Shown: positions 11,700 through 59,104 of the stretch, piece after piece
How the letters are laid out: each line of letters begins with the position of its first letter
Numbering within the stretch: the stretch's first letter is position 1
From: Lytechinus pictus
Taxonomy: Eukaryota
Length of the DNA stretch: 64,000 nucleotides
Direction: 5' to 3'
Assembly (NCBI RefSeq): GCF_037042905.1
Contig: NC_087245.1
Coordinates: 20,834,001-20,898,000, forward strand
Translations under genes and position numbers: made by a program
The notes under the pieces: model-generated
What the model was told of the DNA's origin: nothing
What the model saw: the letters and a program-made list of their open reading frames with translations, nothing else
The model's database searches: none

Positions 11700-13632
11700 G
11701 TAATGTCTTTGCTTTTACCATACTGAAAGGAAACACAATGAGCCATGTCTTGGGAAAATATTTCTATTCATTTTCTGCTAAAAATTATGGTCCTCTGCTT
11801 TTGACGAGTACACGTACTCTGTTAACTACATATGTGTATGTTTCTATACTAACTTTACGTGCTCTGAGGGGTCAAGTGTGATCTTTAAAAAACATTTTGG
11901 TAATTTAGAATAGTGGTTTGTTGCAAAGCCTACGTGAGATTAGTTTGTTTGATAATGAAATATTTTATCTACAATAATTATATCCATGATAGCCACTTAC
12001 GTAGCTGATATTCCAGTGGGTAGTGCATATAGCTAATGTCATTAAAATCTTATCCATATTCTCATACACCAAGAGCCGGGGAAGAAGGTAGGCATTTAGA
12101 AACTTCTACTTTAAAACGATGTCGTTTATCTCTCAAGACCAAGTCATATTAAGTTTGAATAAATTTAAAGTCGAATGGGCGATGAGTACCCTGGAATCTT
12201 TTCGGAATTAAAAATTTATTCTAATAAGTATTAATAATTACCATGAATTTACATAATCGTTCCAATATTTGTACAAACTATTTTTACGCGTTTGTCATTT
12301 CACCGTGCAAAATGTAAAATGAATATCAGATGTTAATATAATTATGTTTTTATTGCGAGCTGTAAGAAATGTATCACTCCGCAATTGCCGGATTGAAAAG
12401 TAGGTGATAGAATCTTGTTTGCTGATAAACCAAAGAAATCTGCAAATATAAATGTCAATCACCATAATTTGCCGAATAGTATTGTTTGTCACATGACCGT
12501 CACAACTACATTTTTATTTCTACTACAAGAGAGAGCGAGCTATCGACAAAAATGAATATTTTTTCTGCATCTTTCATTGCTAGAAAAAGATTGATTACGG
12601 CCTCAAACCGATTTTGAAATTACAGACGAAAACTCAGAAATTTAGATAAATATAGATTATTGTGAAGCTACCTAGTATAGTTGAGCGCATTCTATGAAAA
12701 GGAAACTTTCTTTAAAAAAAAAGGGGGGGGCTTTGGACATGATCTTTTCCGCCCCCATTCGCCAGAACAAGATATTTCAATGTATATTCATGATGACCTA
12801 TGTTACCTTTGATACTTGATCTTGATACCTCTAAAATTAGTTTGATCATCGTCATTTTTCAGTTACGAATATACTTGTAAGAGATACCTGCAAAGATCAT
12901 ATAATAAAAAAAGAGAATACTGAATTAGATGATTGTTTTAGAAAGAAAATACAAGCGTATATCAGAGTAGTTAAGATTAAATAGATAAAAATGTCATTAA
13001 TTCTAAAATTGAAGAGAATAAACACATGAGAACACGAGGTATGATCTATGTTTTTACTTTTAAAAGGCGTACACTCTCAAAATATTGAATAAAATGTTTT
13101 ATTATCTAGCTGGCAAAGAGGGAATACCTATGTTTGTTTTGTCAGTGAAAAGCAATGTTCCATTGGTACGAACTTGCGTGAAATTGGCAAAGAATCTGCC
13201 AATATTCTACCTTCAAAACATGAACCTTTAAAAGAGTATACGGAGATGCTGTTCACGATGGGCTTTTAGTGCACTCCTTCCTTTTATTATATGGCTTACA
13301 TGACAGTCTGCATTGGGAGTTTATTTTATTTAGTGATATTTTGTTCAGAGTGTTTTTCCATTATGACTTCAATCGTATAATGTCTAACATTCATGCATTT
13401 TGAAGGAAACAAAAAATCACTCGTCACCTCACAGTGCGAATTATAAGATGCAATGATAAGGAACTAATATGCGTAAATACATTACCACAGCAGATGTCAT
13501 TGTATATAGATTGGCCCATAGATGGACAATTTCATACATTTTTATCAAATGGATCGGGAGGGAAGCCTCAAGGTATCTTTCATGTAAAATCTCAAATCTG
13601 TAAAGTTTATGCACTCCACACCGTCTAGACAC

Positions 13633-13725
13633 CACGTGATCGTGCATACCAAATAGGTCCTTTACCCGAACAAGGACCACGACACACGTGGATAACAAGT
13701 CACGTGCATTTGCGTCTCAACCAAT
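13633..13725. promoter_or_regulatory. Cluster of three CACGTG E-boxes plus CCAAT
   Basis: CACGTG at 13633, 13685 and 13701; CCAAT at 13721; in unique sequence ~2 kb into the candidate intron. Confidence 0.35.
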
Positions 13726-15649
13726 CAAAGTGCATGAAAGCTGAAGAGGCGCCATGGTATTTTGATACGGACAAGACAGCCTAAATTTGACTTCCCCCAA
13801 AAAAATAAATAAATAAACAAATAAATAAATATCTTCCATCATCTATGGCGGCGCTCATTAAGAGTTCTTGAATGAAAAAAAAGAAAGAAATAATATTCCA
13901 TAATTTGGATCCAGCATTTTGAAGGTCTTACCAAAAACAACATATGCGTTAGAGTGCTGAGATTTATATCAAATCCATGTCATAATATTCTCTTTAGACT
14001 TCAATGAAAACAAAAGAAGTACTAGATTTCATGTTTACCTAGTGAGTGCAGAATTTTTGTTGACCCTGTATGATAAAGTAAGTGAATGCAGACATGGGAT
14101 TTTTGATATTTATTTAGACATCAATCCCAACTTCTACCCACGCTTTTCCTCCTTCACATCGATCTCTTCGCTATATTATCACTTTATTCTCTCTTTCCAT
14201 CTTTTATTTAGTGTTACTGTTTATCTCCACTTCATCAGAGAAGTTCTTGTTTATATTTGATGTCGAAGCATGTTTTGTTCGGTCAAGTTTTTTTTTTCTT
14301 TGTTTCTTTGATTCCTTTTTTTTATTATTCCCACCATTATCAGACAGGTTCTTTCCAACAAAACTGACCAACTAATTCTGTAAAGTTTACTCTATTTCAT
14401 TTTCGCTTCCTATCTCTCGGCGTTCATTCAATCATTTTGTATTTCTCATTCTATTTCTTCTTTCTCATGAGGCTCCATCTACTTTAAATGACGTTAGATA
14501 ATACGATGATGTCTCGTAATTTTTTCTCTTTTTTTTTGTCTTTCTCTCCCCTTTTTTATATTTATTTTCTCCTGAGTTTCTTCCTGATCATATTAATCTT
14601 TTCCTCATCATCACCAGAGTCAAACGAGTATTGTATATTATAGATGTCATTTCTAAGTACCCGTGATGTCTTACTCTCTGTTATTAGGTATTTTCTTTTC
14701 TGTCTATATCTCACCCCATTCTGTTTTATTCCCTCTTTCTTTCTTTTTTCTTTCTTGATGTTCAGCATAATCACAACGTTTGTGTCTTCATTTGTGTTAT
14801 AGTTAAAAGGAATCAACACAACATGTATACTTTATATTTGGTTGATTGTACTTGAAAAGAAGTGCATTGCAAAGCTGACAAAAAAAAAATCTTATTTGGT
14901 GTGATATTGAGAAGGTGAAGGATCTTTTCTAGTTTATTACGCGAGTTCATTCTCCTCTTGACTAGTCTCCAGTTTGTAACCACTTTGAATAATGGTGAGA
15001 TGTGTAGCTCGGTAAAGGCATTTTTTAAATATTTAAATTGATATATTATATCAAATATACAAGCACCTGACAGATGCGTTTCTGTCTATTTCTTAGTATA
15101 TAGTTACTTAGTGATGTATTCATTGCATTGTTTTTATATCACTATATTCATCACCGTAAGCTGAAGGTATAATGTGGATATCATTTTACTTTTGCTTGTC
15201 ACGTTTCAAACTATCACGCATTTGTAGGCCTACCCTTTTTACTGACATATCTGTTTATGCTTTGTTACACATATTTTTGGGTCTTTGTGCAATGCGTTTA
15301 GTATACATCTAGAAAAGGTACAATTATTGTAGTTGTAATACAGTTTATTGTAATTTATAATGATAAATTTCAAAATGGGTGCCTATGAAGTTAAGTCTGC
15401 ATTTGAACAATTTGCATGTTAAGTGACTTTATTCAATTTTGAAATTTAGTTTTATTTATAACTCAATGTCGTTTACAGAGCCTTATGGAATGCTACCACA
15501 TTTGGTGATAAGCTACCTTTATAATTATCCTAAGATAATTAGATGGATATAATTTGAACATATGTATAAATACCTAGCTAAAATAGTGATAAAAGAGTAA
15601 TAAAATGATACAAACATATATTATCCTGTCAGTAAAAGCTTCCGTTACA

Positions 15650-15900
15650 CATTGAATAGCGTCTGTCTTGTAAGGACGAGTCTGTCTTGTTAGGATATAC
15701 AGGGATGTATAAAGCGTCTGGAGGTATACATATAGTTCGCAACAAATCTTGTTACAGAAGTGAAAATGTCATTATGAATATTTGATAGTTCTCAAGGGGA
15801 GTTCTTGCAGAGGATATTGATGGGGAAACGACTTGATTGTGGATATATAAAGGGTTATCATCGTTTGAATTGCCTTGGGAATGAAAATATAGACGTTAGT
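15650..15900 (-). mobile_element. Possible fossil of a Penelope-like retroelement (C-terminal to the RT)
   Basis: Minus strand gatgataaccctttatatatccacaatcaa reads DDNPLYIHNQ, like the KPNxxPLYIHxxSNHPP motif of Penelope-like elements; frameshifted. Confidence 0.4.
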
Positions 15901-16021
15901 TTCTCAATAGTTTTTAAGAGGTCAAGTTTTATAGAGAGCGCTGTGGTGAATACAAGAGGAAGGAATGATTTTACTGCGGAGGAATAAGGGAGCTTAAAAC
16001 AGTTGGTTGGGTTCGACCACA

Positions 16022-16507
16022 AATAATAATAACAAAAATATATAGCATTTATGAGGCGCCGATTTATCTAGTTGCCTATTCAACGGCGCACTATTCCTAG
16101 TCTGCAGGCACAGACCCTGATTGGAAATTTGATCAATAAGTGTGCCTCCACGCAAAGACTAGCACATACAAAACTTGCTGTTTAGAGCCTTCAGTACACA
16201 GGGCATGAGTAGGCTGCACATTCAGACCCTTAACTCGAGTGAAGGGTTTGCCCAGCAGACTACACTATTCCCCGGCTGTAGCTGCAGCTGCTTAAGGTGC
16301 TTGGTTCATTCAAAGACTTAAACCTACCAGGGCCATTCACCTCACCTGGGTTAAGTGCAGCACAATACGGATAAATATCTTGCTGAAGGAAACACGCCGT
16401 GGCTGAGATTCGAACCCACGTCCCTCTCATTGAAAGTGGCTGAGATTCGTACCCACGTCCCTCTCATTGAAAGACGAGATACGTAACCACTAGACCACGA
16501 CGTCTCC
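16022..16507 (-). mobile_element. tRNA-derived SINE (family of 1459) with a duplicated B-box segment and extra ~165 bp in the 3' body
   Basis: Reverse complement of the 1459 head and centre at 16265-16507 and of its tail at 16022-16095. gtggctgagattcgWacccacgtccctctcattgaaa occurs twice (16399-16472). Confidence 0.9.
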
Positions 16508-19500
16508 TGAAATAAATAAACAAGACATACTTTTCTACTGATGAGGAAATATTCCTGAATTCTCGTATTAAAAACGAAACATACTCAATACTCAATGTTA
16601 GCGTAAAAATAGTATTTTTTTTTTTTTTTTTTTTTGGGGGGGGGGTAGTGATGAGTTTTTGAGCATCGCACTGTTTGCCAATAATTAAAGAAAATGGAGG
16701 GGGTGGGGTAACAGAGGAAATAGTCTTGATCTTATGTTTGAAGGGATGAAAAGGAAAGGTAAGATAAAACATACACAGTAAAGCCTACAAGAGGCATGTC
16801 GACCCACACATAAAATGAGTTTGATATATGGTCGTGTTGAAATCGTCATTATTTCAATCTGCTCTTCAGTTTCATTATCGCGCTACACAGGATCAAATAA
16901 CCTGTTAGGCATCTAAACGATTCCAGATTTTTTAATTAAACATCGACAGTGATTGAGTGAGACCAATCTGTGTTTTAATCAAAAGGTATTTGATTGGTAA
17001 TCAGTAAAACGGAATTGAGACATGTTAAAACACAATGAAAGTTTGGCTTTCATGATTATATCCTATTAGGCTTTTAATGACCTTGCATCTAAATCACTGG
17101 TATACAAAATAATGGGGGCTTATGGGGCGACGGACCTCAAAACAAATTGAGAAAAAGAAAAGGAAAGACATAGGGTGAACTATGATATTATTTTGTGACT
17201 ATTATGTCAACATTTTTCCAGGATTGATTTGTGTGTTAAAAAGGTCAAAATTTTGCTCTGTTCTTGCGCTTTCTCGCAGCTCAAAAAAGATAAGTGTCTG
17301 TCCCCCTTACGAAAACGACTCGTAACGCCACTAACTGCTGTACTGTGAATGGTTATAAGTTCTTACAATGGTATAGTTCCCTTCGTTTTTGCCTCTAGAG
17401 GGGAGGGAGGGGGTGTTCGGATACTCCTCACGACGAATTCGACTTACATGTATGTAGACAAATCAAAACATCAACTGATAGAATGTACGGTTACCAAATT
17501 AAGAAATATTATTTGAATAATATTGTTCGAAATACTCTGTATGTTTGATGCAATAATGAAATCAAAGCGATGATATCTGACCAGTTAAAACATACTTTAA
17601 GTGAGCAGTATCTACAAAATGTCAGTGGAAGGACATTGATCCTGTAAGTAAAAACAGGAAAAGACGCAGTTATCCATCATTGTCAACGTTTAATTAGAGT
17701 GTCTTGACATCAGTAATGTGTGTGAAACCCTCCGGGGATATTTCCCCTTCATACTTTTAACACACCTCCGATTATGAGAGATATTCTTAATCAATTATCA
17801 TGAATAATTTACCAGTTTTCTTCTTTTTTTTTTAGAGAAAGTAGCACACACTTGTACCCCAAAAAATCATATTACCCAAAAAAAAACCGCCAAAGAATAA
17901 CATTATTTATAGAGGGAAGCATTTGCCCCTCGTATCAAGGGTCAAATAAATACTAAAACGAAGGATGACAATCCGAAGAAGAAAAAAAAAGATAATGGTG
18001 ATAATGAATAATAGGATAATAAGCAAGAGGGGGAGGAATGAGAGGGGGGATATCAGAACCCCCAGTGTCTGTGATCTTCCCTAAACCCAACAATAGTTGA
18101 TACCAGTGAAGAACAATATGAATGAATCTCGAGTAGAGATTAAAACATCTGTATCTGGTTAATGATTAATGAGCTAAAAGTTCATATCTATATCATACTA
18201 ATTAATCTAGGGTAATTTTTGTCAGTCGACTGCAATAATTGGAACATCAATTAACTCTACTTCTCTTACGACAAACCATTATGCTTCATTTCGATTTTTT
18301 ACCCTTCTCTTTGCCAATTAATCATCTACATTCATAGTCGGCCTTTTTTTTTCAAATTTGTCTTTAAAGAGAAGAAAAAAAAAAAAAGATTATCACTAAA
18401 CCCCTCTCAAATTTCACATCCTAACAATCTGACAAACGCTTGATCCGCGCCTGAATAATTTATGTTGACATTGTTGCTTATTTTTGGAGATCATCAGAAT
18501 ATTCACTATAAATTCAACATTGTTCTTTTACCATTAGTTGTGGAAGACATGTTAAGTTATTAAATGTTAGAGATTTTCTTTCAGATGACCCTCTTATCGT
18601 TGGAATTACTTCCTTTTAAATATTTCCTTTTTTTTTAGAGAATCCAATTTAACTTTCCCATTTTATCAAATTCCTCTCTATAATCTAAATATTTTGCTCA
18701 TCACTGGAATTCACCGTAATTCAACTTCCTTTTCTCTGTTGTAAACATGAATTTGACATTGATTAAAGGAGAGAAAAAAAATTAAAGAATCTACTCGAAA
18801 CTGATAATTCTAAACTTCCTTTTTTTATGCTTCTTCTGGTATTTTTCTCCCCCTGCCCTTTCCAAAGAAATATTTTTGTTCAAGTCCAAAATAATGTTGT
18901 GATTACATGCTATTGATACGCGTGAGAGCTACTCCTGACTTGCCCCGTTTCTCAATTTTCCTCATTAAAGTGAAATTAAACACCGGACGTTGATAAATTG
19001 TCTCGAATCGCAGGTTTTAATCTCTCCTCGGACTCTCATCATTATATCATTGATGTTGGTAGATGATGTCCATTGCGTGTAAGTTTGATGAAGATGTCAA
19101 TTATGATTTTGAATTAGCAGTATGGATGAGTCTTGGTGTGGTGTCTCTGTTTCTCGTTTTCATAGGTGGGTCCGAAACCTATTCCTACAATAGATGTCAT
19201 TCATATTATGGAGAAAAAAACGTTGTACATATTATACTCCATCCGGTAGTGAAGTAAATATTGACTTGACAGAGGTTTGTTCCTTGAAATGCTGCACGCA
19301 TAACAACATTTAAAGTCATGCTGTTGTAGAATGCTTATAGGGACTTCAGCTTTGGAAGGCTAGGTGTAATTATTGTATTTCAGTATCTTTTTATATATAT
19401 TTCAGTCTTAAAAGATATGAACATAATCCAAACTTTATATAAAACAAAATATAATAATATACTGTGAAAATATTGAAAATAGGAACATCAAGTTCATATA

Positions 19501-21591: not shown

Positions 21592-21830
21592 CAGGGGCGG
21601 ATCTAGGATTTTCCAAAGGAGGGGGCAATTTTTCCGATGAAAATTTGACAAGCAAAAAAAAAAAGGTTTTCACCTAAAATTGAAGGGTATTTCGTCCGCG
21701 ACAAGCAAAAAAAAAAAGGGGGGGGACACACTAGGGTAAAAGTGGCATATTTACATTAATTTTTGTTTTCGATATGGCTCTAAAAAGGGGAAGCACGGCC
21801 GGATGTGCCCCCCCCCCGAATCCGCCACTG
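21592..21830. mobile_element. hAT-type MITE with 8-bp TSD TGCATAAT
   Basis: TIRs caggggcggat / atccgccactg; TGCATAAT at 21584-21591 and 21831-21838. Confidence 0.92.
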
Positions 21831-22059
21831 TGCATAATGCCTCTCAAGCTAGTAATACACAATTTTCAACAGTAGGTTTTTTGAAATATTTTTGTGCGTT
21901 AGTAGAAGGGGGCCACCAGCATGAATATCGTCGGCGAGAGCGAAAGATTGTCAAAAACTCATAAGTCTTAGGGCCTCCCCCAATCAGAATGTATTAGCTA
22001 TGCCAACGTTTATAACGTATTATTAAGATACAAATATCCCCCATTAATACATTTCTTAC

Positions 22060-22073
22060 CTTTTCACCAATGC
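22060..22073 (-). other. Candidate 14-nt minus-strand microexon GCATTGGTGAAAAG
   Basis: Minus strand reads gttttcccttttgcttctttgcag|GCATTGGTGAAAAG|gtaaga, with near-consensus acceptor and donor. Confidence 0.4.
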
Positions 22074-26063: not shown

Positions 26064-26420
<357 letters not shown>

Positions 26421-26670
26421 GTTTGTGATAACTGTGTTAATGACGACACATTTTACTTTGTTTTTGCACTTCTATAGTCGCCATTAACGATGTGCTGGAC
26501 GTCTCTGTGAATGAGCTAGGTAGACTTTCTCCGACTTTCCCGCTTCGGAGCTGACAAATTTCATGGTTAAGTTCGCAGTATGGTGATTCCTCATTATCAT
26601 GTCTAATCAGTGTCTGTAAATTGAAGATAATCATTTCTTTGTTCAAAATACAAAATAACGCCGTTTTTAG

Positions 26671-26783
26671 TTATTTAACTTGTAATTTCATTCTTTTTCT
26701 TCTTTTCTTTCCGATCACTATGGTTGTGCCTGCCTTGCCCTCGCGTTGCCTTCGCCTTGATACCAATCAACCAATAGGTAAGT
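26671..26783 (+). promoter_or_regulatory. Candidate recursive splice site 1 (zero-length exon TAG|GTAAGT at 26777/26778)
   Basis: No AG in 26671-26775; pyrimidine tract at ~26686-26712; UGC-rich block; then caatcaaccaatag|gtaagt. Confidence 0.6.
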
Positions 26784-28640: not shown

Positions 28641-28739
28641 TGAAGCAATGAATGAATGTATAAAATTACCATATTGTTAATGCAAATTGATAACACCACA
28701 ATAGATACTACTAATACTCGTTGTAATATACTACTATCG

Positions 28740-31087: not shown

Positions 31088-31090
31088 CTG

Positions 31091-34023: not shown

Positions 34024-34056
<33 letters not shown>

Positions 34057-34081
34057 GCTACTACTACTACTACTACTACTT

Positions 34082-34149
<68 letters not shown>

Positions 34150-34266
34150 GCTACTACTACTACTACTAATACTAATACTACTACTACTAGGCTACTACTA
34201 CTACTACTACTGTACTGCTGCTACAACTACTACTACTACTACTGCTACTACTACTACTACTGCTAT

Positions 34267-34338
<72 letters not shown>

Positions 34339-34468
34339 TGCTACTACTACTACTACTGCTACTACTACTAATACTACTACTACTAGGCTACTACTACTAC
34401 TACTACTATCACTACTATTACTACTACTTCTACTACTACTACTACTACTACTAATATACTACTACTAT

Positions 34469-34529
<61 letters not shown>

Positions 34530-34612
34530 GTTACTTCTATTTCCACTACTACTACTACTTCTACCACGACTATTACTACTATTACTAAATTTACTTCTAA
34601 TTTTACTACTAC
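34024..34612. repeat. Long (TAC)n microsatellite
   Basis: About 590 bp of tac units with tgc/ttc/aggc interruptions. Confidence 0.97.
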
Positions 34613-42398: not shown

Positions 42399-42503
42399 TG
42401 TAACCTTATATTTCATTTTATTGTATTTTCTTTCTCTTCCTTTTATGTCTTCTTGAAATCGATGTCTCCTTTCACCACTGTACAACTAACCAAATAGGTA
42501 AGT
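42399..42503 (+). promoter_or_regulatory. Candidate recursive splice site 2 (zero-length exon TAG|GTAAGT at 42497/42498)
   Basis: No AG in 42399-42495; pyrimidine tract at ~42425-42474; caactaaccaaatag|gtaagt. Confidence 0.6.
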
Positions 42504-43176: not shown

Positions 43177-43680
<504 letters not shown>

Positions 43681-46154
43681 ATGACGACAATGACGAACGA
43701 CGATGAAGATTTCTATACTATACTGCTATTTTATTTAATGATTGCATTACTTTATGACATATAAAATTGTAAATACAAAGTGAGAGAAATAGATAAATAG
43801 ACAAAAAAGACAGTGAAAGGATAAAATTAGCAATTAGTGAATGGTGAGATAAAGGGAAAAAGAGGAAAGAAAGTAGGCAGAGATAGATAGAGATAGGGAG
43901 AGAGGGAGATTGAGAAGAGGGGGGAGATAGAGAGAAATAGGTGTTGTAATTTTCTACCAATTAAGTGAAGGAGAGAATCATTGTATTCAATGACACCAAT
44001 GACGGTTTTTGTCAGGCAGCGTCAAATAAACGTCACAGGTGGAATCCAGTTAATTGTTTAATATGTCTACCAGGTATATCGATTGATTGATTGAGTTCCA
44101 ATACTGGATGACACCCAGGATAGTAACATTGTTATTCGTATAAGCCTTCATTATGTTATTCACAAACGACATTTTAATTTCATCTCCAAAATTCTTTGTG
44201 CTTGGTCATGGTATGTTTAAGGTGAACAAGTTTATTATTTTTTCAAACAAATGCCAATGGCAATAATTATGCTTGTTTTGAATACATAATCTTATTCCAT
44301 TTTGTAATAAACGTTGTTTGCATGATTGCGAAGTTCGTCTAAAATCGATGCACTTTCAAGGTTTCTAATGGTGGAAATGCAGTATACTTCAATTTTATTC
44401 AATAATATTTTTGCTACAGCCAGTTATGATTTAATGAAAAAGCTATCTGCATGATTGTGCTTTTCGGAGAAACAATTGTACTTTCTGATTCCAAACTCTA
44501 TTTCAATTTACAAAAATGTCTACAATTCTGAAGAATATATGATCAGAGTATATAATGAAATTAATGAACTCTGTCAATGAAAAGTAAATGCACATCCATC
44601 AACCGATTTATACTATTTGAATCATTAGACTCCTGTTTTATACTCATCACATGATTCGTATAATTTACCTCCATATCGGCATCAATCATTCTAATTTAGA
44701 ATAGGCCTATATCGAAAGAACTGCTTTGTCGTCACATTTCTGACGATGTGGATATACTCCATCCTAGTCTGCTCAACGTGTGTGTCCTACAGAATGTATA
44801 CAAATGCTGTTATTTTTATCATTATTCATATGAAATTATTGGAAATAAGTTAATTATTAATCGGTCATTCTGAAGTGCTTAAGTTATACGGTACCTGAAG
44901 GTTTAATGGATGTAAAAATCAATATTATATTCATAAACATGTTGCAATTTATAATAAATAAGTGTCTGTTTCCAATCGAAGCTTGCTTTTGTTTTTCTCT
45001 TTTTCATAATTTCACACCCGTATTCGTAATACAATTGAGTGCAAGGTCACCCGCCGAGTTGATAGTCTGTAGTGGCAGACCCGCCTGTGGAGTAGAACGT
45101 AATTTTGATTGGATATCACTCCAATAATTTTTTATAAGAGCTCCTATAGGATGCCGTTTGTCACGTGATCACGACTATTGCAGCCAGATCAAGACATTTT
45201 CAGTCGGAGGGGCAGAGTGTGGGAAAAAAACTTGATAATGACTACATTAAAAAATAAGATAAAAAGGAGGAAAACACAAAAATACAGGGAGGGATGACGC
45301 GTGAAGTTTGGACCCTTGCCCCTGCACCACTGACACTCGGTGCAGAACAAACTATGCATTAATCCATGCGAAAATGTATTTGTTTTTACAGAAAAGCTAT
45401 TCAATGAATTGCAAATCTTTGTAGAAGGCTAAACCATGGGTGCCTTGTGAGAAAACGGCATGTGTTTTCTGTCAACGACTTTGTGGCGCCTCCATAATTT
45501 ATGTTTCGGCCAGTGTTCGTTTGTGAAAAACCGATGCGTAATGAGAGATAATATTCTATCCGATCATGATTGTAGTAAACAATGCATGGTTTCTTTTACC
45601 AGTTCTTGTTCTGAATGCGAAAAAAATGTTTCATCCATATAAGTTTGCCTGGATGTTAGGCTTTGCCACTTAATATTACACTCATTATTATTATTTTCAT
45701 GCAGCGGACCTATCGAACATTATGTCAAAAAGGGATCGCAGACCCTAACTTTCATTTTTCTCTGATAAGTCCACATAGCCAAAATCTTGCTTGTGTATAA
45801 TTTCTCCACTGCCATAAAACTGCAAGACTTTCTTTACACAGAAATCGCTCAATCTCATTAAATTACTTACTCCTAACATTTTGTAAAAAATATCACAACG
45901 CAACAAGGAAACTAAAAGAGAATGTCATTTGTTTGTTTATAGCGTCCTACCAAACAAGAAAGCTGTTCCTCTCCACCCCCTCTCGTCATATCACGGAATA
46001 CTTCTGGTTAACAATTATTTCGAGGGTATTTATAGTCATACCTGGGGGGGGGGTCGATGAATCTGTGTACACAGGGCTGTTTAGCAAAACACTTTTCTTG
46101 TAACAATACTACAATCAAGAAAGGAAGAGAAAAAACGAGCTTAACGATACTAAT

Positions 46155-46228
46155 CATAACGAGTACCGAAGTGATGACGTCACAAAAAAATTGGAAAATT
46201 GATGACGTCACACTCCGGTACTCTTATG
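46155..46228. repeat. Short inverted repeat carrying two TGACGTCA palindromes
   Basis: cataacgagtaccgaagtgatgacgtca (46155-46182) pairs with tgacgtcacactccggtactcttatg (46203-46228). Confidence 0.7.
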
Positions 46229-46787: not shown

Positions 46788-46967
<180 letters not shown>

Positions 46968-46984
46968 AAAAATATCAATTATCT

Positions 46985-47252
46985 CATCGTCATCACCAGC
47001 TCCATCAATCATCATTATCTTTTTCAACATCACCACCCTTGCTTCCACTACCACCATCATCATCACAACCGCTACCACCATCACCATCAGCAGCATCACA
47101 GACACCATGCACCACCACTACCATAATAATTCACCACCACTACCACTACAATCAGCAGCAGCACCACAACCACCAGCACCATCACCACCACCATCACCAC
47201 CACCATCACCCCCACCATCACCTCCATCATCACCTGCATCATCCGTATCATC
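46985..47252. repeat. Degenerate (CAC/CAT)n tract
   Basis: Directly visible; source of the His/Pro-rich ORFs. Confidence 0.85.
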
Positions 47253-48379: not shown

Positions 48380-49000
48380 ATATTTTGGTCTTGGGGTAAA
48401 GATGTGCAAGGCATATTTTTTTGCATGTGTTGGAAATTGTGTTGCCATGGTAACAGTGTATTATGGCAAAAATAAGGTACAAATCTTGCAGTTAGAACTA
48501 CTTCCTCTGTTGTCACCCGATTCTCATGAAATTTGGCACACACATTGGTCTTGAGGTGAAGATGTCTAAGACACATTTTGTGTGTCTTTCAAAAATCTTG
48601 TTACCATGGTAACAACATATTATTTGGTGAAAATTGGGGAAAAAATTACAATTCAAACTGCTTCATCAGTTTTAAATCAATTCTCATGAAATTTGACACA
48701 CACATTGGTATTAGGGTAAAGATGTACAAGGCACTATTTGTATGTGTTTCATAAATTGTGTTGCCATGGTAACAACATATTATATGGCAAAATTTAGGTA
48801 AAAACCTTGCAATTTGAACAACTTCATCAGTTTTGAACCATTTCTCATGAAACTTGGCTCATACATTTGCTTTGAGGTAAAGATGTGCAAGAACCATTTT
48901 ATGTGTGCATTTGTCAGAGTATATTGCCATGGTAACCACATATGATAGCCAGAAATGCAGGAAAATTCATTGTGGATCAAACAACTTCCCCTTTTTTTAG
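48380..49000 (+). repeat. Tandem ~160-bp subrepeats in the left foldback arm (mirrored at ~51800-52400), each with GTTRCCATGGYAAC
   Basis: Motif at 48441, 48600, 48760 and 48923 (variant); tctcatgaaa(t/c)ttg and ggt(a/g)aagatgt recur with the same period. Confidence 0.88.
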
Positions 49001-51138: not shown

Positions 51139-51710
51139 AGGGGAATCCAAACCAAATAAACACTTGTTTTTATGAGGAAAAGAAAAAATCAGACAAAAGG
51201 TCAAAGTTTGAACAATATTGGACAAACCATAAGAAAGTTGTGAATATATAAAAGTTGTAAACATTGGTAATCACTATATACCCATGAAGACTTCAAATTG
51301 GCCGCACATGTGATGTCATAATGATGTAAGGGAAGGACCACTCTTCCATGTACAGAAATAATTAATTGACTAAAATGTCTTTTTCAAAAGTTTTTCTTCA
51401 AATTGTATCTTTCTTTCATGAGGACATAAAGCATTATACTAACAGGTTTATATTACGGCCCCAATGAAATTTAGGAGAAAAACAAAAATCAAAGTACAAG
51501 GCCAATGGGAAAGTTGTCCTTGCGGCCTCACCCCTTGTCATAATTTACTTACCCATTATCAATTTGAAATCTACATACTAGTAGCCTTAGGGATCTTAAT
51601 TTTAAAGCAGCCATAACTTTATTTTGCTTGTCCGATTGCTTTCAAACTTTCACCATTCTTATTTTTCTCCTTTTCCACACAACATTTTATGACCAAGGCT
51701 GGATTCCCCT
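51139..51710. mobile_element. Kolobok-like element with TTAA TSD inserted in the right foldback arm only
   Basis: ttaa|aggggaatcca ... tggattcccct|ttaa. The flanks join to match the uninterrupted left arm at ~49050-49080. Confidence 0.9.
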
Positions 51711-52799
51711 TTAACACTGAATGTGAATCTTTACCCAAAATTAATATTTGTGTAAACTTTTCTGAGCACAGGCTGAAAACTGAGAAGTAGATTGATCCAC
51801 AATTGATGAGTTTTCCCTGCATTTCTGGCTATATGTGGTTATCAAGGCAATGCACTCTCTGACAAATGAAAAAAAAAGGTTCTTGCACATCTTTATCTCA
51901 AGGCCAATGTGTGAGCCATATCATGCATGATAATTGGTTTGAAACTGATGAAGTAGTTCAAATTGCAAGGTTTTTACCTAAATTTTGCCATAAAATATGT
52001 TGTTACCATGGCAACACAATTTATGAAACAATCACAAAAAGTGCCTTGTACATCTTTACTTTAATACCAATGTGTGTGCCAAATTTCATGAGAATTGATT
52101 TAAAACTGATGAAGCAGTTTGAATTGTAAGGTTTTTTCCCCAATTTTCACCAAATGTTATGTTGTTACCATGGCAACAAAATTTCCGAAAGACACACAAA
52201 ATGTGTCTTAGACATCTTCACCTCAAGACCAATGTGTGTGCCAAATTTCATGAGAATCAGATGAAAACAGAGGAAGTAGTTCTAACTGCAAGATTTGTAA
52301 CCTTATTTTGCCATAATACACTGTTACCATGGCAACACATGCAAAAAATGTGTCTTGCACATCTTTACACCAAGACCAAAATATGTACATACACACCAAC
52401 ATTCAACCCCCTCCACCGCCACCCTTCGGCTTGTTTAGCATCTGCATTCAGATATTTAGTGCATTGAGATGTGAGGACAAACAAAATATCTGTTCAAAAA
52501 GGGTCTGAATTCAAGAACTAAACCAATGCAAAATAATGCACTGCTATTGAGTTTTGCACTAGCGCTAGTCTATATATCAGACCAATCTAAACTCATAAAT
52601 TCTGACATTTTCACCCATTTTTTCACTGTTCCTGCAGCCAGATTTTTTGGAGCATACCCCATTTTTAATTCTTATACATAAACAAAGGTCTGGAGAAAAA
52701 ATCATGCTTTTGTCCACTGTGTCCACAAGTAGGGTGTTTTTGACGCTAACAGACCGGACTATATCAGCAGTGCGGTGTGTAAACAGTACTAGTAAAGCG

Positions 52800-53131
52800 A
52801 AACTTTCTTTCACATGCGCCTGAGCGAGTGAGCTGTGACTGCGATGGATTTCAGAGTGATTAGATAAAGTCCTTGATGAAGTTAAAGATTGTAACCAGGA
52901 TCCCTTTTCTAGTCACGGATTTCTATCGGATTAAAGTCATCGCAAGACGTTATTTTTCTTGGAGGTATAGACAGCTAAGTAAAAATGTTCCCAGCAGCGA
53001 CCGTGATAGGACGGTCGGACTACTCGTCCCACGAGCGCCTGGACCGCCCGCTATCCAAGTCGGGAAATTCGCAGTGTCATACACCTTCGCATCAAAGTGA
53101 TCGAAATCTTCATGTTCTTTCAGATGGGCAG
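52800..53131 (+). other. Candidate alternative first exon (or 8-nt microexon 53124-53131) with donor CAG|gtaagt
   Basis: CpG-richer unique segment ending in ttctttcag ATGGGCAG|gtaagt; the start coordinate is approximate. Confidence 0.5.
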
Positions 53132-54076
53132 GTAAGTTTCAGTTCAGTATTTTAATTAAAGTTTTGCATACAGTTTACAGAATGATTTAAAGAGAAGAGT
53201 TCTATCAAGTAAATCAAGTTCAATTGACAAAATCCGGGGGGGGGGGGGGGGGTCACAAGGGTTGCACACCCCCTCTAACTCGCCATATTGAGAATTGCTC
53301 GTTGAACATACATATCGATGTAACTACATCTAAGAAAATTGTTATCTGTGCTTCATTTTATTTCCAAATGTGCTATTTGTGCCTCTATTATTTCCAAATC
53401 TTTGATTCACCACTGCAAATACTAATATATCCTGCATATAATTTGCCAAATAAACTGCCATGGCTGTTGCCTTCACCTCACAAGATCCTAGATGTGTGTT
53501 TGAGAAGATGGGTGGAGGGTATGTATGTGCAAAAAAACAACAACTGGGCAACATAGATTATGTAGAGTTTAAGGATTAATGTAGGAACTAACTACTAGGC
53601 ACGGAATTAACAATAATAATAATACAAAAATGCATTTAAGGTCTACCATTTTCTAACAAAATGATGAATTAGGAATCAAACAAGATTGATTTCTGTTAAG
53701 CCATTCTAGTGTAAATCAGTTACATTGCAGTCATCATGTGATATATAATTTCAGTCCTTTTGAGTTACATGTACTTTTGAATGAAATCCTGGTGGATGCA
53801 TTTTGAGCCTAAAATGGTTTTGGGACATATGAACCAGTATCAAACAATGAGAAGTCAATGAAATGTATATAAGCAGATTTGACAGTCTCTCTATTGGGAA
53901 GGACAAGTAATCAAGATCCCCTTTTTTTAAAGTTTCATTGGACCATTATTGGTTACATAAGTTTCCCACCCCACTACTCTCTGTTTCCAAATGAAATTTG
54001 ATCTAGTTGGACAAGAATAGAAGAAGAAAAATGTGTCAACTGGTATTTTGGGGAAAGATAATGTCAAGAATGTGAA

Positions 54077-54513
54077 ATATTTGCAAGAAATATGTTTGAA
54101 TGATGAAATATAAAATGCAATCGAAAAAATTGGGATTTGACAATGCTCCAGATTAAAATGAAACATCACCCTAACAAAATCCAAAGGCTCTACATTAAAT
54201 ACAAAAGTCAGTTGTGATTAGAGACTGTTTTAGAGTACCCCACTGGATGACAGTACAATGATAATGACAATAATATCAATTAACAATTGACATTTGACAT
54301 ATTTGCAAGAAATATGTTTGAATGATGAAATATAAAATGCAATCGAAAAATTGGGATTTGACAATGCTCCAGATTGAAATGAAACATCACCCTAACAAAA
54401 TCCAAAGGCTCTACATTAAATACAAAAGTCAGTTGTGATTGGAGACTGTTTTAGAGTACTCCACTGGATGACAGTACAATGATAATGACAATAATATAAA
54501 TTAACAATTGACA
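54077..54513. repeat. Tandem direct duplication of ~215 bp
   Basis: 54077-54292 and 54299-54513 differ at only a few positions; 6-bp linker tttgac. Confidence 0.95.
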
Positions 54514-55229
54514 ATTACTAAAATCAATATGTAAAACAAAAACTATTGCCATAAAGTCTGTACATAAATCATTTACCTCAATGAGAATAGGGGGGGGGGG
54601 GTGGGTGCACAAGAGGAGAGCCAGTTTGAGTCAGTGAATGTGGGCTCTAAAGTTGTTATAGGATCTCAGGGATAACAGAACCATTAAATCCAAAACCTAC
54701 ATGTAACCGGCTTTTTGATAACCATCCATTATGGTTAAAGTTGTTTAATTACTTTGGTATCTTGCTTACAGTATTATACAAAGATATCAGTTAGTTTATA
54801 TTAATTACAGCTGTTTTTCTGACTGATAAACTCACCACGTATTGGAATCAGAGTTGTGCAGTTAGAAGATAAAGTGAAGTATTAATCACACGGGTAGCCT
54901 GATCTGAATGAGTTATGAAGAGCTGATATCCATCAATTAGAGAATGCCTTTGCTTGATAATCAATAAATATTATTAATGAATTAAGAGTTCAAACAATCT
55001 AAGGGAGAAACAGATAGATGGGGGGGGGGGGGGTGGTCTTCTGTCTTATTCAGTGATTATACGTAATTATATATTATTAGGTACCAAGGAATTGGACGGA
55101 TTATGTATTGAAATGAAAGGGAATAGGACAGATAGGAAAGAATGAATAGGAGTTTCTTAAGACCAATATGGAAAGATAAATTCTGATTAGAAGTTTGTTA
55201 AAAGAGAACTAGACTTTTTTTGACAATTA

Positions 55230-55396
55230 TACCTTGGTCACATTTGCTCTACGGCAGCCGTACGGCGAGTCGAAAACAGCCGTTCTAACAGTTTTTTTAA
55301 ATGTCCAACTACATATAGGTGGGTTGAATTAAAATTGATAAAACGGCTGTTTTCGACTCGCCGTACGGCAGCCGTAGAGCAAATGTGACCAAGGTA
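55230..55396. mobile_element. PIF/Harbinger-type MITE with TTA TSD
   Basis: tta|taccttggtcacatttgctctacggc... ...gccgtagagcaaatgtgaccaaggta|tta; ~57-bp near-perfect TIRs. Confidence 0.93.
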
Positions 55397-56253
55397 TTAA
55401 TAAGAAATGGAAAAAAAAGAGATAGAAGAATTGAAATTGTTTATTACTAATTTATTGGTGATGTAATTGAGCAAGGTTTCAATGGATGGTTGTTTGAATT
55501 GACCAAAACTGCAAGAAAGTGTTAACTACCAACAAATTATATGTGAATCTGATGAGTTAAAAAAGTAAATTGATTTGAGATTGGTACCTAGCGCCAATTT
55601 GTAATAAATCAGATTCTTTTGACCAACATGAAAGGGTTAAATTAGAGTAAATTAATTAAATTAACATTAGATTCTATTTTACAAAAGGGAAAATATGTTG
55701 ATTAGACTAGGCTACATTGACTGAATTTCGAATGTTTGTTTTGATTTAGTTAAACTATTTAATGAAAGGTTTGAAATGGTTACCAAAACCATTAAATTGC
55801 TAAATGGCTCTTAATTGAATTTTCATTGAGTAAATGAAAATATGAGACTGGAAGGGACAAATTTAAAATCTGAAGTGGACGAATTTTAGATTGGGAAGGG
55901 TAAAATTTGGAATTGAAATTGACAAGAAGTGACTGAATGAATGTAGACACTCTGCTTGATCTTTTTGTAATTCTGGGAATCTCCAGGTTCCGAGCACTCA
56001 AGAGATAATGAAAGAAAACATTCCTCCATTATATATATCATCTACATCCATAGTAAAGTTCAACATCAGGCACGATCAGTGAGAGTAATGGTGAGTGGAA
56101 ATCATGATGGGCCATTCTGAAATTGAAAGCATCCAATCCAACTATGGCAGGGATCCATGCAAACAGGGAATGAAGATTGAAGATAGGACATGGAATGGGG
56201 GAGAAAAGAAAATGTGTGAGGGAAAGCAGCTCCCAGCTCAGAGCCTGCTTTAA

Positions 56254-56650
56254 AGATAAATACCAGTTGTGGTAATGATCTCAAAATGAGTTCGAACAGA
56301 ATCCAATGAAAATTACCCTCAAAGTGTTTGTATGTATAAATACAAAATATGTGCCAAAGAGCTCTGGAAGAAAATGCGCAATTGCTGAGAAATTAGCAAA
56401 ATAAGCATAGAATTCCATCAAATGTCAGGTATTTTTCGAAGCAATATTAATAATACACTGTCCCACATATGCTTTTCTGTGTTATTGATCATCAGAATTA
56501 TCAATTTTGACCTAAGATTTCATGATTTTACAAAGATGACTTTAAATTAGTGTACCAGATCTAGATGTATGATATTATTTTGACAATCAACCTTGATTTA
56601 AAAGACTTTCTCAAGAAATAATTGTTTGCTGCAACCACTGCATTTTACCT
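56254..56650. mobile_element. Kolobok-like element with TTAA flanks, imperfect TIRs
   Basis: ttaa|agataaataccagttg ... ccactgcattttacct|ttaa. Confidence 0.65.
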
Positions 56651-58010
56651 TTAAGCATTGGAAAATCTAAAACTTCATTTTCAAAGGAAATTATAGTGTA
56701 TCTTAAAATACAGGTTGCTGGAATGAAATGAGTAAAATTTTAAATCAAACATCAATTTTGCCTCCCTGACTTTTAAAGTAACTCTTGCCTTCTGGTATAA
56801 AACAATTTTTATCCAGGATTTTGAAATAGAGGAGGAACAAATGATAATTTTCTTAGATATAGCTATATCAATATATATGTCCCTTGGGCAATTCTTAAAA
56901 TAAGGAGGGGGTGTGCGCTACTTGTGCTCTTGCCTGGATCTGCCACTGTAATAATAATAATGCAATTATTTCTATAAATAACTTTTTAAAAGTGATAATA
57001 TGAGTTTACAATCAGAAGAGTGTTTGAAGGATGTTTAACTGTCAAATTAAAATTTTCATTTTAAAAATCAGTCAATGAAAAAATATATGCTCAGGGCTAC
57101 AATTTTGTACGATAAAATATAGAAGCTTTAGTCATGCTTTGATGACTGAAGGATTTGATACAGGACACCGGAAAATGCATCCCCGATTAAGGATTTGGGA
57201 AACAAGAGTATTGTGAAAAAGTTGAAGCCATGTTTACTGCACAGTGCCCTTGAACTTTAATGTTACCCCTTTCCCATTTGAAATAAATGACCAAATCAAA
57301 TCAGTAATATAGAATCTTCTTTATCACATTACTGCTCTTAGGTTGGAGTAATGAAAATCGCATACATTAAACGTTAAGGGTCTCTCTCTCTCTTTCCTCA
57401 AATCCCGGTATTGCTCCACCCAAACGTATTCCACCACGTAATGCTGCATTAATATCAGGTAATTCTGATACAGGGGAACTACGTGGACGGTTACCTTTTA
57501 ATTCAATCAAAATTGTCCCAGTTGATTAAAAACCTGGTATTGAGATGCACAGAGCAGTCTATCTGTATAGAGCTATATGCATACCTTTCATTTGTTATGT
57601 ATGCAGGCCTATAGCCTCAGAGAAAGTGACAAGCTGTGCTCTGCCCATACAGTAATAAAATATGTTTTAGTCCTTACCATTCAATTTAAGTATGAAATTT
57701 CAATTGGAAGATTGACAAGGATTTGTATTATAGGTCAAGTTTCAAAGTCAACTTACTGGGTATGTACTTGCTAAATTTGGGTGATAAAAAAATTCAGTAT
57801 ATATTGTACATGCTTCTCATTTTAGAGGTTGCAATATGCTATTGAGTCTAAAGACGAATTAGATAAGAGATGTATTCTGTCAGATGTTTCTCAAAAGAGA
57901 TAGAAGAAACCTTCTTGGGGCAGAAATTCAGGAGCTTGTGTCTTGATAGATTGTCATAGCCATATTTTTGCTTCAAAGTTAAAATTATTGTTTTCTAATT
58001 TACTTGATAA

Positions 58011-58419
58011 AGCCCCCATCACACTTATTCGGAATCAGCAGGAATCAAGCAGAAGCTGGAAAGACAAAAATATTTAAAAAATCTAGAATTTTTGGAGGAA
58101 CTTATGAATTCACCAAACTGGAGTTGAAATTCAGTAAATTGACCAGGTGTATCATCATACACTAGTCAAAATGAACCGCAATGGAGTCAGATTGATAATT
58201 CGTGCTACGTTCTTGGACATTCTAGGGGCATTCTGAGTGCATTCGAAATATTTTTGTCATTTCTTTTGGCCGTCCCGAAGGTTTTGGTCATGTTCAAAAC
58301 ATTCAAGGGATATTTTCGAACGGTGTTCGAAGTAGATTTAAATGACCAACTGGTGGTCAAACAATAGTCCTTTCATTCAGGCCAATTCTGCTTGATTCGG
58401 AATAAGTGTGATGGGGGCT
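58011..58419. mobile_element. PIF/Harbinger-type MITE with TAA TSD
   Basis: taa|agcccccatcacacttattc ... gaataagtgtgatgggggct|taa; subterminal gaatcaagcagaa / ttctgcttgattc. Confidence 0.92.
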
Positions 58420-59104
58420 TAAGATTTCATTCTGGGACTTTGAGGGATTATTTTGTCACCCTATATAGACTCCAACATGGAGTTGATGTATTTTAGCAAC
58501 TTTGTTTTAGGATCCATTATGTCCAAAACTTTTTATCTCTTATTATTTTCTTATCACACGCAAATTCACCTCAGATGTATCATAGTCCCAATGATTTATT
58601 TTGTGGAATTCAGTTCCATGTACAATTCTTTATCTCCCCAGGGTACCGTTTCCCAGAATTTCAGGCAGGTTTCTATTCCCCGATAAAGTACCGTAGCATT
58701 CGTTTATCATTGATTTTGAGATAATTGTTCTCATATAGAGCATACCGCTATCTTCTGAGGATTCCATTAGATGGTTGAACAGGAATTGAGAAGCTGATCC
58801 TAGTTTTAGGCACCTTGTCAAGGGTCAGAGCTGTGGTTTTCCCTACAGGAACCTGCAAGCAACTTTCCATGTAACTCCTTGATTTAACTTTTCTCTATAA
58901 AGTAAAAATAATGGAGAAAGCAGGTAGAGCTATAAGAAAGATGCATAGAACTTGTGTTGTGGGACTCCCACTAAAAAATGTGCCAAAGATATTTGTAAAG
59001 GTATCTCATTTCTCTATGAAGTGCCTTTTGTAACAAATAGAATCTATGTAATTTTCTAAGAACTCATTTTGATGTGTAATTCTTGATATACTATACTCTT
59101 CCAG

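What the first reader, a model, noticed from the sequence alone, without database searches (positions are those of the whole stretch)
11700..59104. Evenly spaced zero-length-exon junctions suggest recursive splicing of a 47-kb intron
Seen: between the candidate exons 11604-11699 and 59105-59182 are two + strand TAG|GTAAGT junctions (26777/8 and 42497/8). Each is preceded by a pyrimidine tract and a long AG-free zone (105 and 97 nt). They divide the 47,405-nt intron into 15,078, 15,720 and 16,607 nt. Established: juxtaposed 3'/5' splice sites (ratchet points) mediate stepwise removal of long introns in Drosophila, while vertebrate recursive sites usually head a cryptic RS-exon. Inference: this is a recursively spliced intron in a probable echinoderm; I know of no characterisation of the mechanism in that group. 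The flanking exons are themselves predictions.
Basis: partly seen in the sequence, partly recalled or inferred. Interest (0 to 1): 0.9.

Follow-up and report, generated by a model that had tools for sequence, protein, structure and literature searches.

The report
Candidate recursive splice sites, sea-urchin DPP6-like gene
Two rare back-to-back splice signals lie on the coding strand in the giant front introns of a sea-urchin potassium-channel helper gene, with three more further downstream; they look like stepping stones for removing very long introns piece by piece, but no RNA data could be read to show that they are used.

Summary
TAG|GTAAGT sits at 26777/8 and 42497/8 on the + strand, behind AG-free zones of 105 and 97 nt with pyrimidine tracts, and the segment lengths are as stated.

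The window is the far 5' part of a Lytechinus pictus DPP6/DPP10-like gene on the + strand. Exon 59105-59182 is real by homology to Diadema DPP6-like. Exon 11604-11699 is unverified.

The next intron is 190,180 nt and holds three more + strand YAG|GTAAGT sites with AG-free zones of 281, 118 and 90 nt. So 5 of 6 such sites at the locus have zones of at least 90 nt, against 2 of 100 sampled genome-wide (Fisher p = 1.2e-6). Chance is excluded.

Recursive splice sites are the best reading (about 0.6).

Enrichment of such sites in sea-urchin long introns was published in 2009 (PMC2773006). I rate this a new member of a known kind, with an unusual distal pyrimidine tract. The scan has noted similar unproven candidates in two other genomes (e1-7595210, e1-7497223).

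The parts
11604..11699 (+). E1a: candidate distal first coding exon. It runs from ATG to GAG|GTAATG, is 96 nt and is in phase 0. It is unverified.
   Evidence: Sequence read. Single copy in the genome. Its frame matches exon E2. No protein match for a 40-aa query made of this exon plus 8 intron-encoded residues. CpG and GC content gave no promoter signal.
26671..26775 (+). AG-free zone of RS1 (105 nt), containing a 20/20 pyrimidine tract at 26693-26712.
   Evidence: After shuffling the zone's own composition, the chance of no AG is 0.087.
26775..26783 (+). RS1 core TAG|GTAAGT, with the junction at 26777/26778.
   Evidence: The 300-nt flank is single copy. One donor-like site, aag|GTGAAG, lies 65 nt downstream.
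42399..42495 (+). AG-free zone of RS2 (97 nt), containing a 19/20 pyrimidine tract at 42427-42446.
42495..42503 (+). RS2 core TAG|GTAAGT, with the junction at 42497/42498.
   Evidence: The 300-nt flank is single copy. No donor-like site (at least 7 of 9 matches) within 250 nt downstream.
52985..53131 (+). E1b: a real alternative first coding exon (MFPAATVIGRSDY...), 147 nt, phase 0, donor CAG|GTAAGT. Its AG-free zone is only 6 nt.
   Evidence: 74% identical to the N-terminus of Diadema DPP6-like proteins P0022 and P0024. An in-frame TAA lies upstream of the ATG (read).
59105..59182 (+). E2: coding exon, 78 nt, phase 0-0. Acceptor is cttccag|GG with a 42-nt AG-free zone; donor is ACG|GTAAGG.
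   Evidence: 69% identical to residues 49-77 of Diadema P0024, where it lies between the E1b-type exon and the common ELVGG exon.
59183..64000 (+). Start of the 190,180-nt intron from E2 to the common exon, which begins at window-relative 249363. That intron holds three more YAG|GTAAGT sites, at window-relative 112820 (L006:8820), 135161 (L009:1161) and 184158 (L014:158).

Best explanation
The window covers the distal 5' region of the Lytechinus pictus DPP6/DPP10-like gene, which encodes an auxiliary subunit of A-type K+ channels and is transcribed on the + strand. Like its vertebrate relatives, the gene has several alternative first exons spread over more than 200 kb.

The two TAG|GTAAGT sites (26777/8 and 42497/8), and three more YAG|GTAAGT sites in the following 190-kb intron, are most likely recursive splice sites (ratchet points).

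Inferred mechanism. The 5' exon is spliced to the first AG downstream of a distal branch point and pyrimidine tract. The AG-free zone guarantees that this AG is the one abutting GTAAGT. Ligation then regenerates a strong donor: GAG|GTAAGT after E1a, or ACG|GTAAGT after E2. That donor is used for the next step, so the giant introns leave in pieces of about 15-65 kb.

Shown: the motifs, their strand, their rarity, the AG avoidance, the gene identity, and exons E1b and E2.

Inferred: that the sites are used at all, that use is sequential, and that the transcript crossing RS1 and RS2 starts at E1a (11604-11699) or at another unannotated exon upstream of 26.7 kb.
For: (1) Gene and strand. Exons E1b and E2 match Diadema DPP6-like proteins in the order E1b, E2, ELVGG exon. 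Downstream exons are 100% identical to L. pictus DPP6/DPP10-like isoforms.

(2) In the 304 kb examined there are 6 + strand AG|GTAAGT sites. Five have AG-free zones of 90-281 nt; the sixth is the real E1b donor, with a zone of 6 nt. The only - strand site is AAG|GTAAGT with a zone of 10 nt.

(3) Controls. Only 1.1% of all AGs have zones of at least 90 nt. Of the first 100 of 8,208 genome-wide YAGGTAAGT sites, 2 have zones of at least 90 nt, with a median of 11.5. Fisher's test of 5/6 against 2/100 gives p = 1.2e-6. About 0.024 such sites are expected in 237.7 kb, so P(5 or more) = 6.5e-11.

About 0.019 are expected in 190 kb, giving P(3 or more) of about 1e-6 (my Poisson arithmetic).

(5) AG avoidance goes beyond composition: 0 AG against 18 GA in 691 nt of zones.

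(6) All five sites have Y at position -3, and four have an 18-20/20 pyrimidine 20-mer inside the zone.

(7) The zones cannot be coding cassette exons. Three of the five end in TAG in phase 0, and the RS1 and RS2 zones carry stops or are not a multiple of 3 (read).

(8) The sizes fit fly recursive introns, which average 45,164 bp with a median segment of 16,368 bp (10.1101/006163, passages). Here the intron is 47,405 nt in segments of 15.1, 15.7 and 16.6 kb. Spacing this even has P = 0.002 if E1a is the boundary.

(9) Ratchet-point motifs are 8.2-fold enriched on the sense strand of sea-urchin introns over 50 kb (PMC2773006).
Against: No RNA evidence of any kind was obtained: no junction reads, saw-tooth profile or lariats.

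No test of conservation in other urchins was possible.

E1a matched no known protein. No L. pictus protein retrieved here contains E1b or E2 either, so the distal isoforms are inferred from Diadema.

The sites depart from fly ratchet points. The pyrimidine tract is 27-63 nt away from the AG in four of the five. TT at -5/-6 is present in only 1 of 5. A downstream donor-like site that could close a cryptic recursive exon is seen for only 1 of 5 within about 100 nt.

The segments of the 190-kb intron are uneven: 53.6, 22.3, 49.0 and 65.2 kb.

The threshold of 90 nt was chosen after seeing the data. With a threshold of 60 nt the contrast is 5/6 against 3/100.

The 100 control sites all come from the first 9.5 Mb of one contig.
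Confidence: 0.6

Rival explanations
1. The GTAAGT sites are ordinary donors of unannotated exons that end at 26777 and 42497. These would be non-coding alternative first exons of this many-promoter gene, or poison or cassette exons. Nothing is spliced to the abutting AG.
For: The gene has at least five alternative first exons. The third CAG|GTAAGT at 53131/2 is exactly such a donor. A short ATG-initiated frame precedes RS1 (26720-26777, read).
Against: Real donors here do not have AG-free zones: E1b has 6 nt, and other AG-ending donors have 0-35 nt. Nothing in a first exon selects for 90-281 nt without AG, or for an internal pyrimidine tract. The frames do not fit E2: phase 1 for RS1, and an in-frame TAG for RS2. 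Five of five sites would have to share the same odd feature by coincidence.
Confidence: 0.15
2. The sites are recursive, but of the RS-exon type known from flies and vertebrates. A cryptic exon starting at GTAAGT is first defined with a downstream donor. It is then skipped, or occasionally included as a poison exon.
For: This is the current model for fly ratchet points and vertebrate sites (PMC8605326, Introduction read). RS1 has aag|GTGAAG 65 nt downstream.
Against: Only 1 of 5 sites has a donor-like site (at least 7 of 9 consensus matches) within about 100 nt. One more has one at +220, and three have none within 250 nt. My consensus count is crude, though, and cryptic donors are expected to be weak.
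Confidence: 0.12
3. The sites are strong sense-strand U1 snRNP binding sites kept for another reason, such as suppressing premature cleavage and polyadenylation in very long introns. The upstream AG depletion serves only to stop pseudo-exon formation. No recursive step occurs.
For: The sites are sense-strand specific, lie in very long introns, and have a perfect U1 match. The role of U1 in protecting long introns is recalled from the literature and was not checked here.
Against: This does not explain the Y at -3 in 5 of 5 sites, since the donor consensus prefers A or C there. It does not explain the pyrimidine tracts inside the zones. Genome-wide, YAGGTAAGT is about three-fold rarer than its reversed control, so such sites are not generally favoured.
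Confidence: 0.08
4. Chance co-occurrence of a donor-like octamer with AG-poor, pyrimidine-rich low-complexity DNA.
For: The window is AT-rich and full of microsatellites. By composition alone, each zone has a 4-15% chance of lacking AG.
Against: The joint probabilities are between 1e-6 and 1e-10. The pattern was confirmed out of sample in the next intron. The one - strand AG|GTAAGT in the same 304 kb is AAG|GTAAGT with a 10-nt AG-free zone, so that strand has no comparable site. The genome-wide sample gave 2 of 100.
Confidence: 0.02

Closest known systems
Drosophila zero-nucleotide recursive splice sites, or ratchet points (Ubx, kuz, osp, fz, luna). Sources: Duff et al. preprint 10.1101/006163, passages read; Joseph et al. 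2021, PMC8605326, Introduction read. Hatton 1998 and Burnette 2005 are known only as cited there.
   Same: An acceptor and a GTAAGT donor abut on the sense strand of introns of tens of kb. There are several sites per intron. Intron and segment sizes fall in the same range: fly introns average 45 kb with a median segment of 16.4 kb, against 47.4 kb in three parts of 15-17 kb here. The host is a long gene with several promoters.
   Different: Fly sites have a prominent pyrimidine tract right next to the AG, TT at -5/-6, and branch points at -21 to -36. Here the tract lies 27-63 nt from the AG in 4 of 5 sites, the AG-free zones are 90-281 nt, and TT at -5/-6 is present in 1 of 5. A downstream cryptic-exon donor is not evident for most sites. 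Use is not shown by RNA.
Predicted enrichment of ratchet-point motifs in long introns of the sea urchin Strongylocentrotus purpuratus (Shepard et al. 2009, PMC2773006, passages read).
   Same: Same animal group and same motif class. That study found 0.54 sites per 100 kb on the sense strand against 0.066 on the antisense strand in introns over 50 kb.
   Different: That was a genome-wide count using a human-derived matrix that scores an adjacent pyrimidine tract. In the passages I read it named no locus, described no AG-free zone and used no RNA. The present sites are concrete loci in another urchin, and their distal tracts might score poorly with such a matrix.
Vertebrate recursive splicing through RS-exons (Sibley et al. 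2015; Blazquez et al. 2018, PMC6224609). The first is known from the Introduction of PMC8605326; the second from its search listing and abstract only.
   Same: A regenerated donor at the start of the element, in long genes expressed in the nervous system.
   Different: The vertebrate sites head a defined exon with its own downstream donor. Such a donor is seen here for only one site.
3' splice sites with distant branch points and long AG exclusion zones (Gooding et al. 2006; recalled, not read here).
   Same: A long AG-free stretch between the branch point and pyrimidine tract and the first AG downstream, which is the one used.
   Different: Those sites are acceptors of ordinary, often alternative, exons. 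They are not abutted by a perfect donor.

Membership tests
Zero-nucleotide recursive splice site (ratchet point), Drosophila type | Core motif of abutting acceptor and donor, YAG|GTAAGT | tested here: met
   The exact motif is present at 26775-26783 and 42495-42503, and at three downstream sites.
Zero-nucleotide recursive splice site (ratchet point), Drosophila type | Prominent pyrimidine tract directly upstream of the AG, with TT at -5/-6 and the branch point at -21 to -36 | tested here: not met
   Positions -20 to -3 are 50% pyrimidine at RS1, RS2 and the 184158 site. The best tracts end 27-63 nt before the AG in 4 of 5 sites. TT at -5/-6 is present in 1 of 5. Branch points are not testable here.
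Zero-nucleotide recursive splice site (ratchet point), Drosophila type | Lies on the sense strand inside a long intron (over about 11 kb) | tested here: inconclusive
   The sense strand of the DPP6-like gene is met for all five sites. The three downstream sites lie in the 190,180-nt intron defined by homology. RS1 and RS2 lie upstream of the first verified exon (E1b), so for them intron status depends on the unverified exon E1a or on another upstream exon.
Zero-nucleotide recursive splice site (ratchet point), Drosophila type | Junction reads from the upstream exon to the site, a saw-tooth read density, and lariats | not testable with these tools
   Three rRNA-depleted RNA runs were listed.
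Zero-nucleotide recursive splice site (ratchet point), Drosophila type | Strong conservation of the core in related species | not testable with these tools
   No other echinoderm genome DNA is reachable. Only proteins of other urchins were available.
Zero-nucleotide recursive splice site (ratchet point), Drosophila type | Cryptic recursive exon of about 50 nt, closed by a weaker downstream donor | tested here: inconclusive
   Donor-like sites with at least 7 of 9 consensus matches: RS1 at +65, the 184158 site at +220, and none within 250 nt for the other three. The scoring is crude.
Vertebrate RS-exon | An exon that starts with a donor motif and is defined by its own downstream 5' splice site, and is included or skipped | tested here: inconclusive
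   Same data as the row above, and no RNA.
DPP6/DPP10 (DPP4-like, S9B) gene with alternative first exons | Alternative N-terminal exons joined to a common exon that encodes the ELVG..RNW(K/R)G segment and the transmembrane helix, followed by the DPPIV_N and Peptidase_S9 domains | tested here: met
   P0001 and P0022 carry PF00930 and PF00326. The isoforms differ only in their N-termini. The exons were mapped by tblastn.

The most novel reading that the evidence does not exclude
Sea urchins may use true zero-length recursive splicing built differently from that of flies and vertebrates. In place of a downstream cryptic exon, the site would be defined from upstream. The branch point and pyrimidine tract lie 30-90 nt or more before the AG, and an AG-free spacer forces the second step onto the AG that abuts GTAAGT. 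U2 at the distal branch point and U1 on the GTAAGT could then bind together, as if across a virtual exon that never enters the RNA. From the 2 of 100 long-zone sites among 8,208 genome-wide, about 160 such sites may exist in the genome. Recursive removal of giant introns would then be ancestral to bilaterians and reduced in vertebrates. At this locus the sites would also carry distal-promoter exons of the DPP6-like gene past its downstream alternative first exons.
Probability: 0.15. Interest if true: 0.75.

Novelty: new member of a known kind. Interest (0 to 1): 0.5.

Why it matters
Recursive splicing at zero-length sites has been shown by experiment mainly in Drosophila. Vertebrates mostly use recursive exons, and for other invertebrates I found only motif counts.

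This locus offers five concrete, statistically secure candidate sites in a deuterostome invertebrate, inside a gene with a 190-kb intron and many promoters. That makes it a direct test of whether the fly-type mechanism is ancient.

The consistent distal-tract, long AG-free layout, if it is used, would show a second way to define a site that has no exon.

The analysis also points to distal DPP6-like isoforms (E1b-E2) that are missing from the L. pictus proteins retrieved here.

The test is cheap, because rRNA-depleted RNA-seq runs of this species already exist.

Tried and rejected
RNA evidence. The look-up of sequencing runs listed no RNA holder. Nothing was laid, so there is no verdict on expression or junctions.

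E1a. A 32-aa query was too short. A 40-aa query reaching 8 codons into the intron found nothing, with 9 candidates and none at E <= 1. This is weak evidence.

E2 search. The open frame around E2, searched against 1.84 billion representatives, gave 2 hits. The better one (P0026) is an immunoglobulin-repeat protein matching by a repeated short motif, so I rejected it as spurious. The other hit, P0027, was not looked at.

Repeat origin. RS1 and RS2 flanks align only at the core and a short T/C run and are single copy. Rejected.

Promoter signal at E1a. CpG observed/expected and GC content are uninformative. The verified first exons show no peak either.

ORF scan. A scan of 264 kb by GC content and entropy was too noisy to find exons. 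It did surface the DPP-like frame that led to the gene.

Upstream DNA.

Literature. 'recursive splic' plus 'AG exclusion zone' gave 2 papers, neither about recursive-site architecture judging by title and abstract. For 'recursive splic' with DPP6 or DPP10, none of the 20 listed papers (of 151 holding at least two terms) held the splicing term.

Earlier notes of this scan hold nothing at this locus.


Full report
OBSERVATION

The + strand reads ...caaccaatag|GTAAGTCATG at 26777/8 and ...aaccaaatag|GTAAGTCCAT at 42497/8. The AG-free zones upstream are 105 and 97 nt, ranking 2nd and 3rd among the 167 + strand AGGT sites in the window. Each zone holds a strong pyrimidine tract: 20/20 at 26693-26712 and 19/20 at 42427-42446. 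The window has three AGGTAAGT on the + strand and none on the - strand.

The two regions are not repeats of each other, and each 300-nt flank is single copy in the 811-Mb assembly. The stated segment lengths are correct.

It closes a GC-richer open frame that starts with ATG at 52985.

WHAT GENE THIS IS

The window is G000:C1:20834001-20898000. I fetched 200 kb downstream and found an open frame resembling the DPP4 family. A protein search gave 100% identity to Lytechinus pictus 'inactive dipeptidyl peptidase 10-like / dipeptidyl aminopeptidase-like protein 6' isoforms.

The exon 52985-53131 (E1b) matches the N-terminus of Diadema 'A-type potassium channel modulatory protein DPP6-like' at 74% identity.

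In L. pictus the common exon starts at window-relative 249363. The E2-to-common intron is therefore 190,180 nt. Further alternative first exons lie at 228810, 239422/240040, 244514 and 251527.

The window is thus the distal 5' region of a + strand gene with several promoters. E2 and E1b are real by homology, although no L. pictus protein retrieved here contains them.

It is supported only by its ATG, its GAG|GTAATG donor, a frame that fits E2, and its GC content.

IS IT MORE THAN CHANCE?

I scanned 304 kb, from 40 kb upstream of the window to 200 kb downstream. The + strand has six AG|GTAAGT sites:
- 26777, AG-free zone 105 nt
- 42497, zone 97 nt
- 53131, zone 6 nt (the real E1b donor)
- 112820, zone 281 nt
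- 135161, zone 118 nt
- 184158, zone 90 nt

The - strand has one, AAG|GTAAGT, with a zone of 10 nt. The last three + strand sites lie in the 190-kb intron and cut it into 53.6, 22.3, 49.0 and 65.2 kb.

Background. 1.1% of all AGs in these 304 kb have zones of at least 90 nt. Genome-wide, YAGGTAAGT occurs 4,214 + 3,994 times, about three-fold less often than its reversed control. I fetched the first 100 listed places, on contig C1 between 0.09 and 9.46 Mb, both strands. Two of the 100 have zones of at least 90 nt, three have at least 60 nt, and the median is 11.5.

Tests. Fisher's test of 5/6 against 2/100 gives p = 1.2e-6. The expected number of long-zone sites in the 237.7 kb between E1a and the common exon is 0.024, so P(5 or more) = 6.5e-11. 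About 0.019 are expected in 190 kb, giving P(3 or more) of about 1e-6 by my own Poisson arithmetic.

The zones avoid AG beyond what their composition explains: 0 AG against 18 GA in 691 nt, with about 17 AG expected.

Caveats. The 90-nt cut-off was chosen after seeing the data, and the control sample comes from one end of one contig.

ANATOMY

All five sites have Y at -3 and an exact GTAAGT, which reads GTAAGTC at the two window sites and GTAAGTGA at the three downstream.

The verified acceptors of this gene have AG-free zones of 30-61 nt, and their highest pyrimidine content is at -20 to -3. The candidate sites differ: their pyrimidine tracts sit further back, with the best 20-mers ending 27-63 nt before the AG in four of the five. 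The last 20 nt are A/C-rich at RS1, RS2 and 184158.

The zones are not coding cassette exons. Three of the five end in TAG in phase 0, the RS1 zone has a stop in the E1a-E2 frame, and the RS2 zone is 97 nt long.

A downstream donor-like site that could close a cryptic recursive exon is present at +65 for RS1 and at +220 for 184158. At my crude threshold of 7 of 9 matches there is none for the other three.

INTERPRETATION

A perfect donor abutting the first AG after a distal pyrimidine tract, sense-strand specific and recurring five times in the giant 5' introns of one gene, is what recursive splice sites look like. Intron and segment sizes match those of fly recursive introns, which average 45,164 bp with a median segment of 16,368 bp (10.1101/006163).

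If E1a is the true upstream exon, the three nearly equal segments have P = 0.002 under random placement. That boundary is itself a prediction.

RS1 and RS2 lie upstream of the first verified exon. If they are functional, they imply an unannotated promoter or exon upstream of 26.7 kb, and E1a is the best candidate.

I put recursive use at about 0.6. The rivals are:
- ordinary donors of unannotated exons (0.15);
- recursion of the RS-exon type (0.12), which is a variant rather than a contradiction;
- U1 binding sites with AG depletion but no recursion (0.08);
- chance (0.02).

WHAT COULD NOT BE DONE

Three rRNA-depleted, paired-end RNA runs of the species were listed. They would have been ideal. 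Junction reads, saw-tooth coverage and lariats therefore remain untested.

No DNA of another echinoderm is reachable with these tools, so conservation is also untested.

COMPARISON WITH WHAT IS KNOWN

Fly ratchet points share the core motif and the context. They differ in having a prominent adjacent pyrimidine tract, TT at -5/-6 and branch points at -21 to -36, and they are now thought to work through short cryptic exons (PMC8605326, Introduction).

Shepard et al. 2009 (PMC2773006, passages) reported an 8.2-fold sense-strand enrichment of such motifs in sea-urchin introns over 50 kb. The existence of candidate sites in this group is therefore not new.

I found no experimental work on echinoderms, and no paper linking recursive sites to AG exclusion zones.

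Vertebrate DPP6 is known to have N-terminal variants arising from alternative initiation (PMC3366920, abstract in the listing).

VERDICT

I rate it a new member of a known kind, with a possibly distinctive upstream-defined architecture. Interest is 0.5.

Noticed in passing
window 52985-53131 and 59105-59182: E1b and E2 are conserved coding exons of a distal DPP6-like isoform. Diadema has the order E1b, E2, ELVGG exon. None of the L. pictus, L. variegatus or S. purpuratus isoforms retrieved contains them, so this is probably an unannotated isoform with a 190-kb intron.
   Followed up: partly
L006:8820, L009:1161, L014:158 (window-relative 112820, 135161, 184158): Three more + strand YAG|GTAAGT sites, with AG-free zones of 281, 118 and 90 nt, lie in the 190-kb intron downstream of the window.
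   Followed up: yes
L055 (C1:3354584, +) and L056 (C1:3401054, +): These are the only two long-zone sites (172 and 148 nt) among the 100 genome-wide YAGGTAAGT sites sampled. They lie 46.5 kb apart on the same strand, so they may be recursive sites in another long intron.
   Followed up: no
window-relative 98591, 183426, 190988, 224983 (L005, L013, L014, L018): + strand CAG|GT sites with AG-free zones of 94-207 nt but weaker donors (GTAGGG, GTAATG, GTGAAT, GTGGGA). They may be weaker sites of the same kind.
   Followed up: no
whole genome: YAGGTAAGT occurs 8,208 times, against 24,878 for the same letters read backwards. This is a three-fold genome-wide depletion of the perfect acceptor-donor word.
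   Followed up: no
window 26064-26421, 34024-34587, 43179-43681: Three long, imperfect trinucleotide arrays, (TGA)n, (ACT)n and (CTA)n, of 120-190 copies each, lie in the introns. The first is 356 nt upstream of RS1.
   Followed up: no
window 48385-48906 and 51882-52339: Two arrays of a roughly 160-nt tandem repeat in opposite orientation lie about 3 kb apart, just upstream of E1b. Their open frames on opposite strands give the same peptide. They could pair in the pre-mRNA.
   Followed up: no
window 52964/5: Another AG|GT (cttggag|GTATAG) follows a T-rich tract 20 nt before the ATG of E1b. If used as an acceptor, E1b would become an internal exon, with an in-frame stop for E1a-initiated reading.
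   Followed up: no
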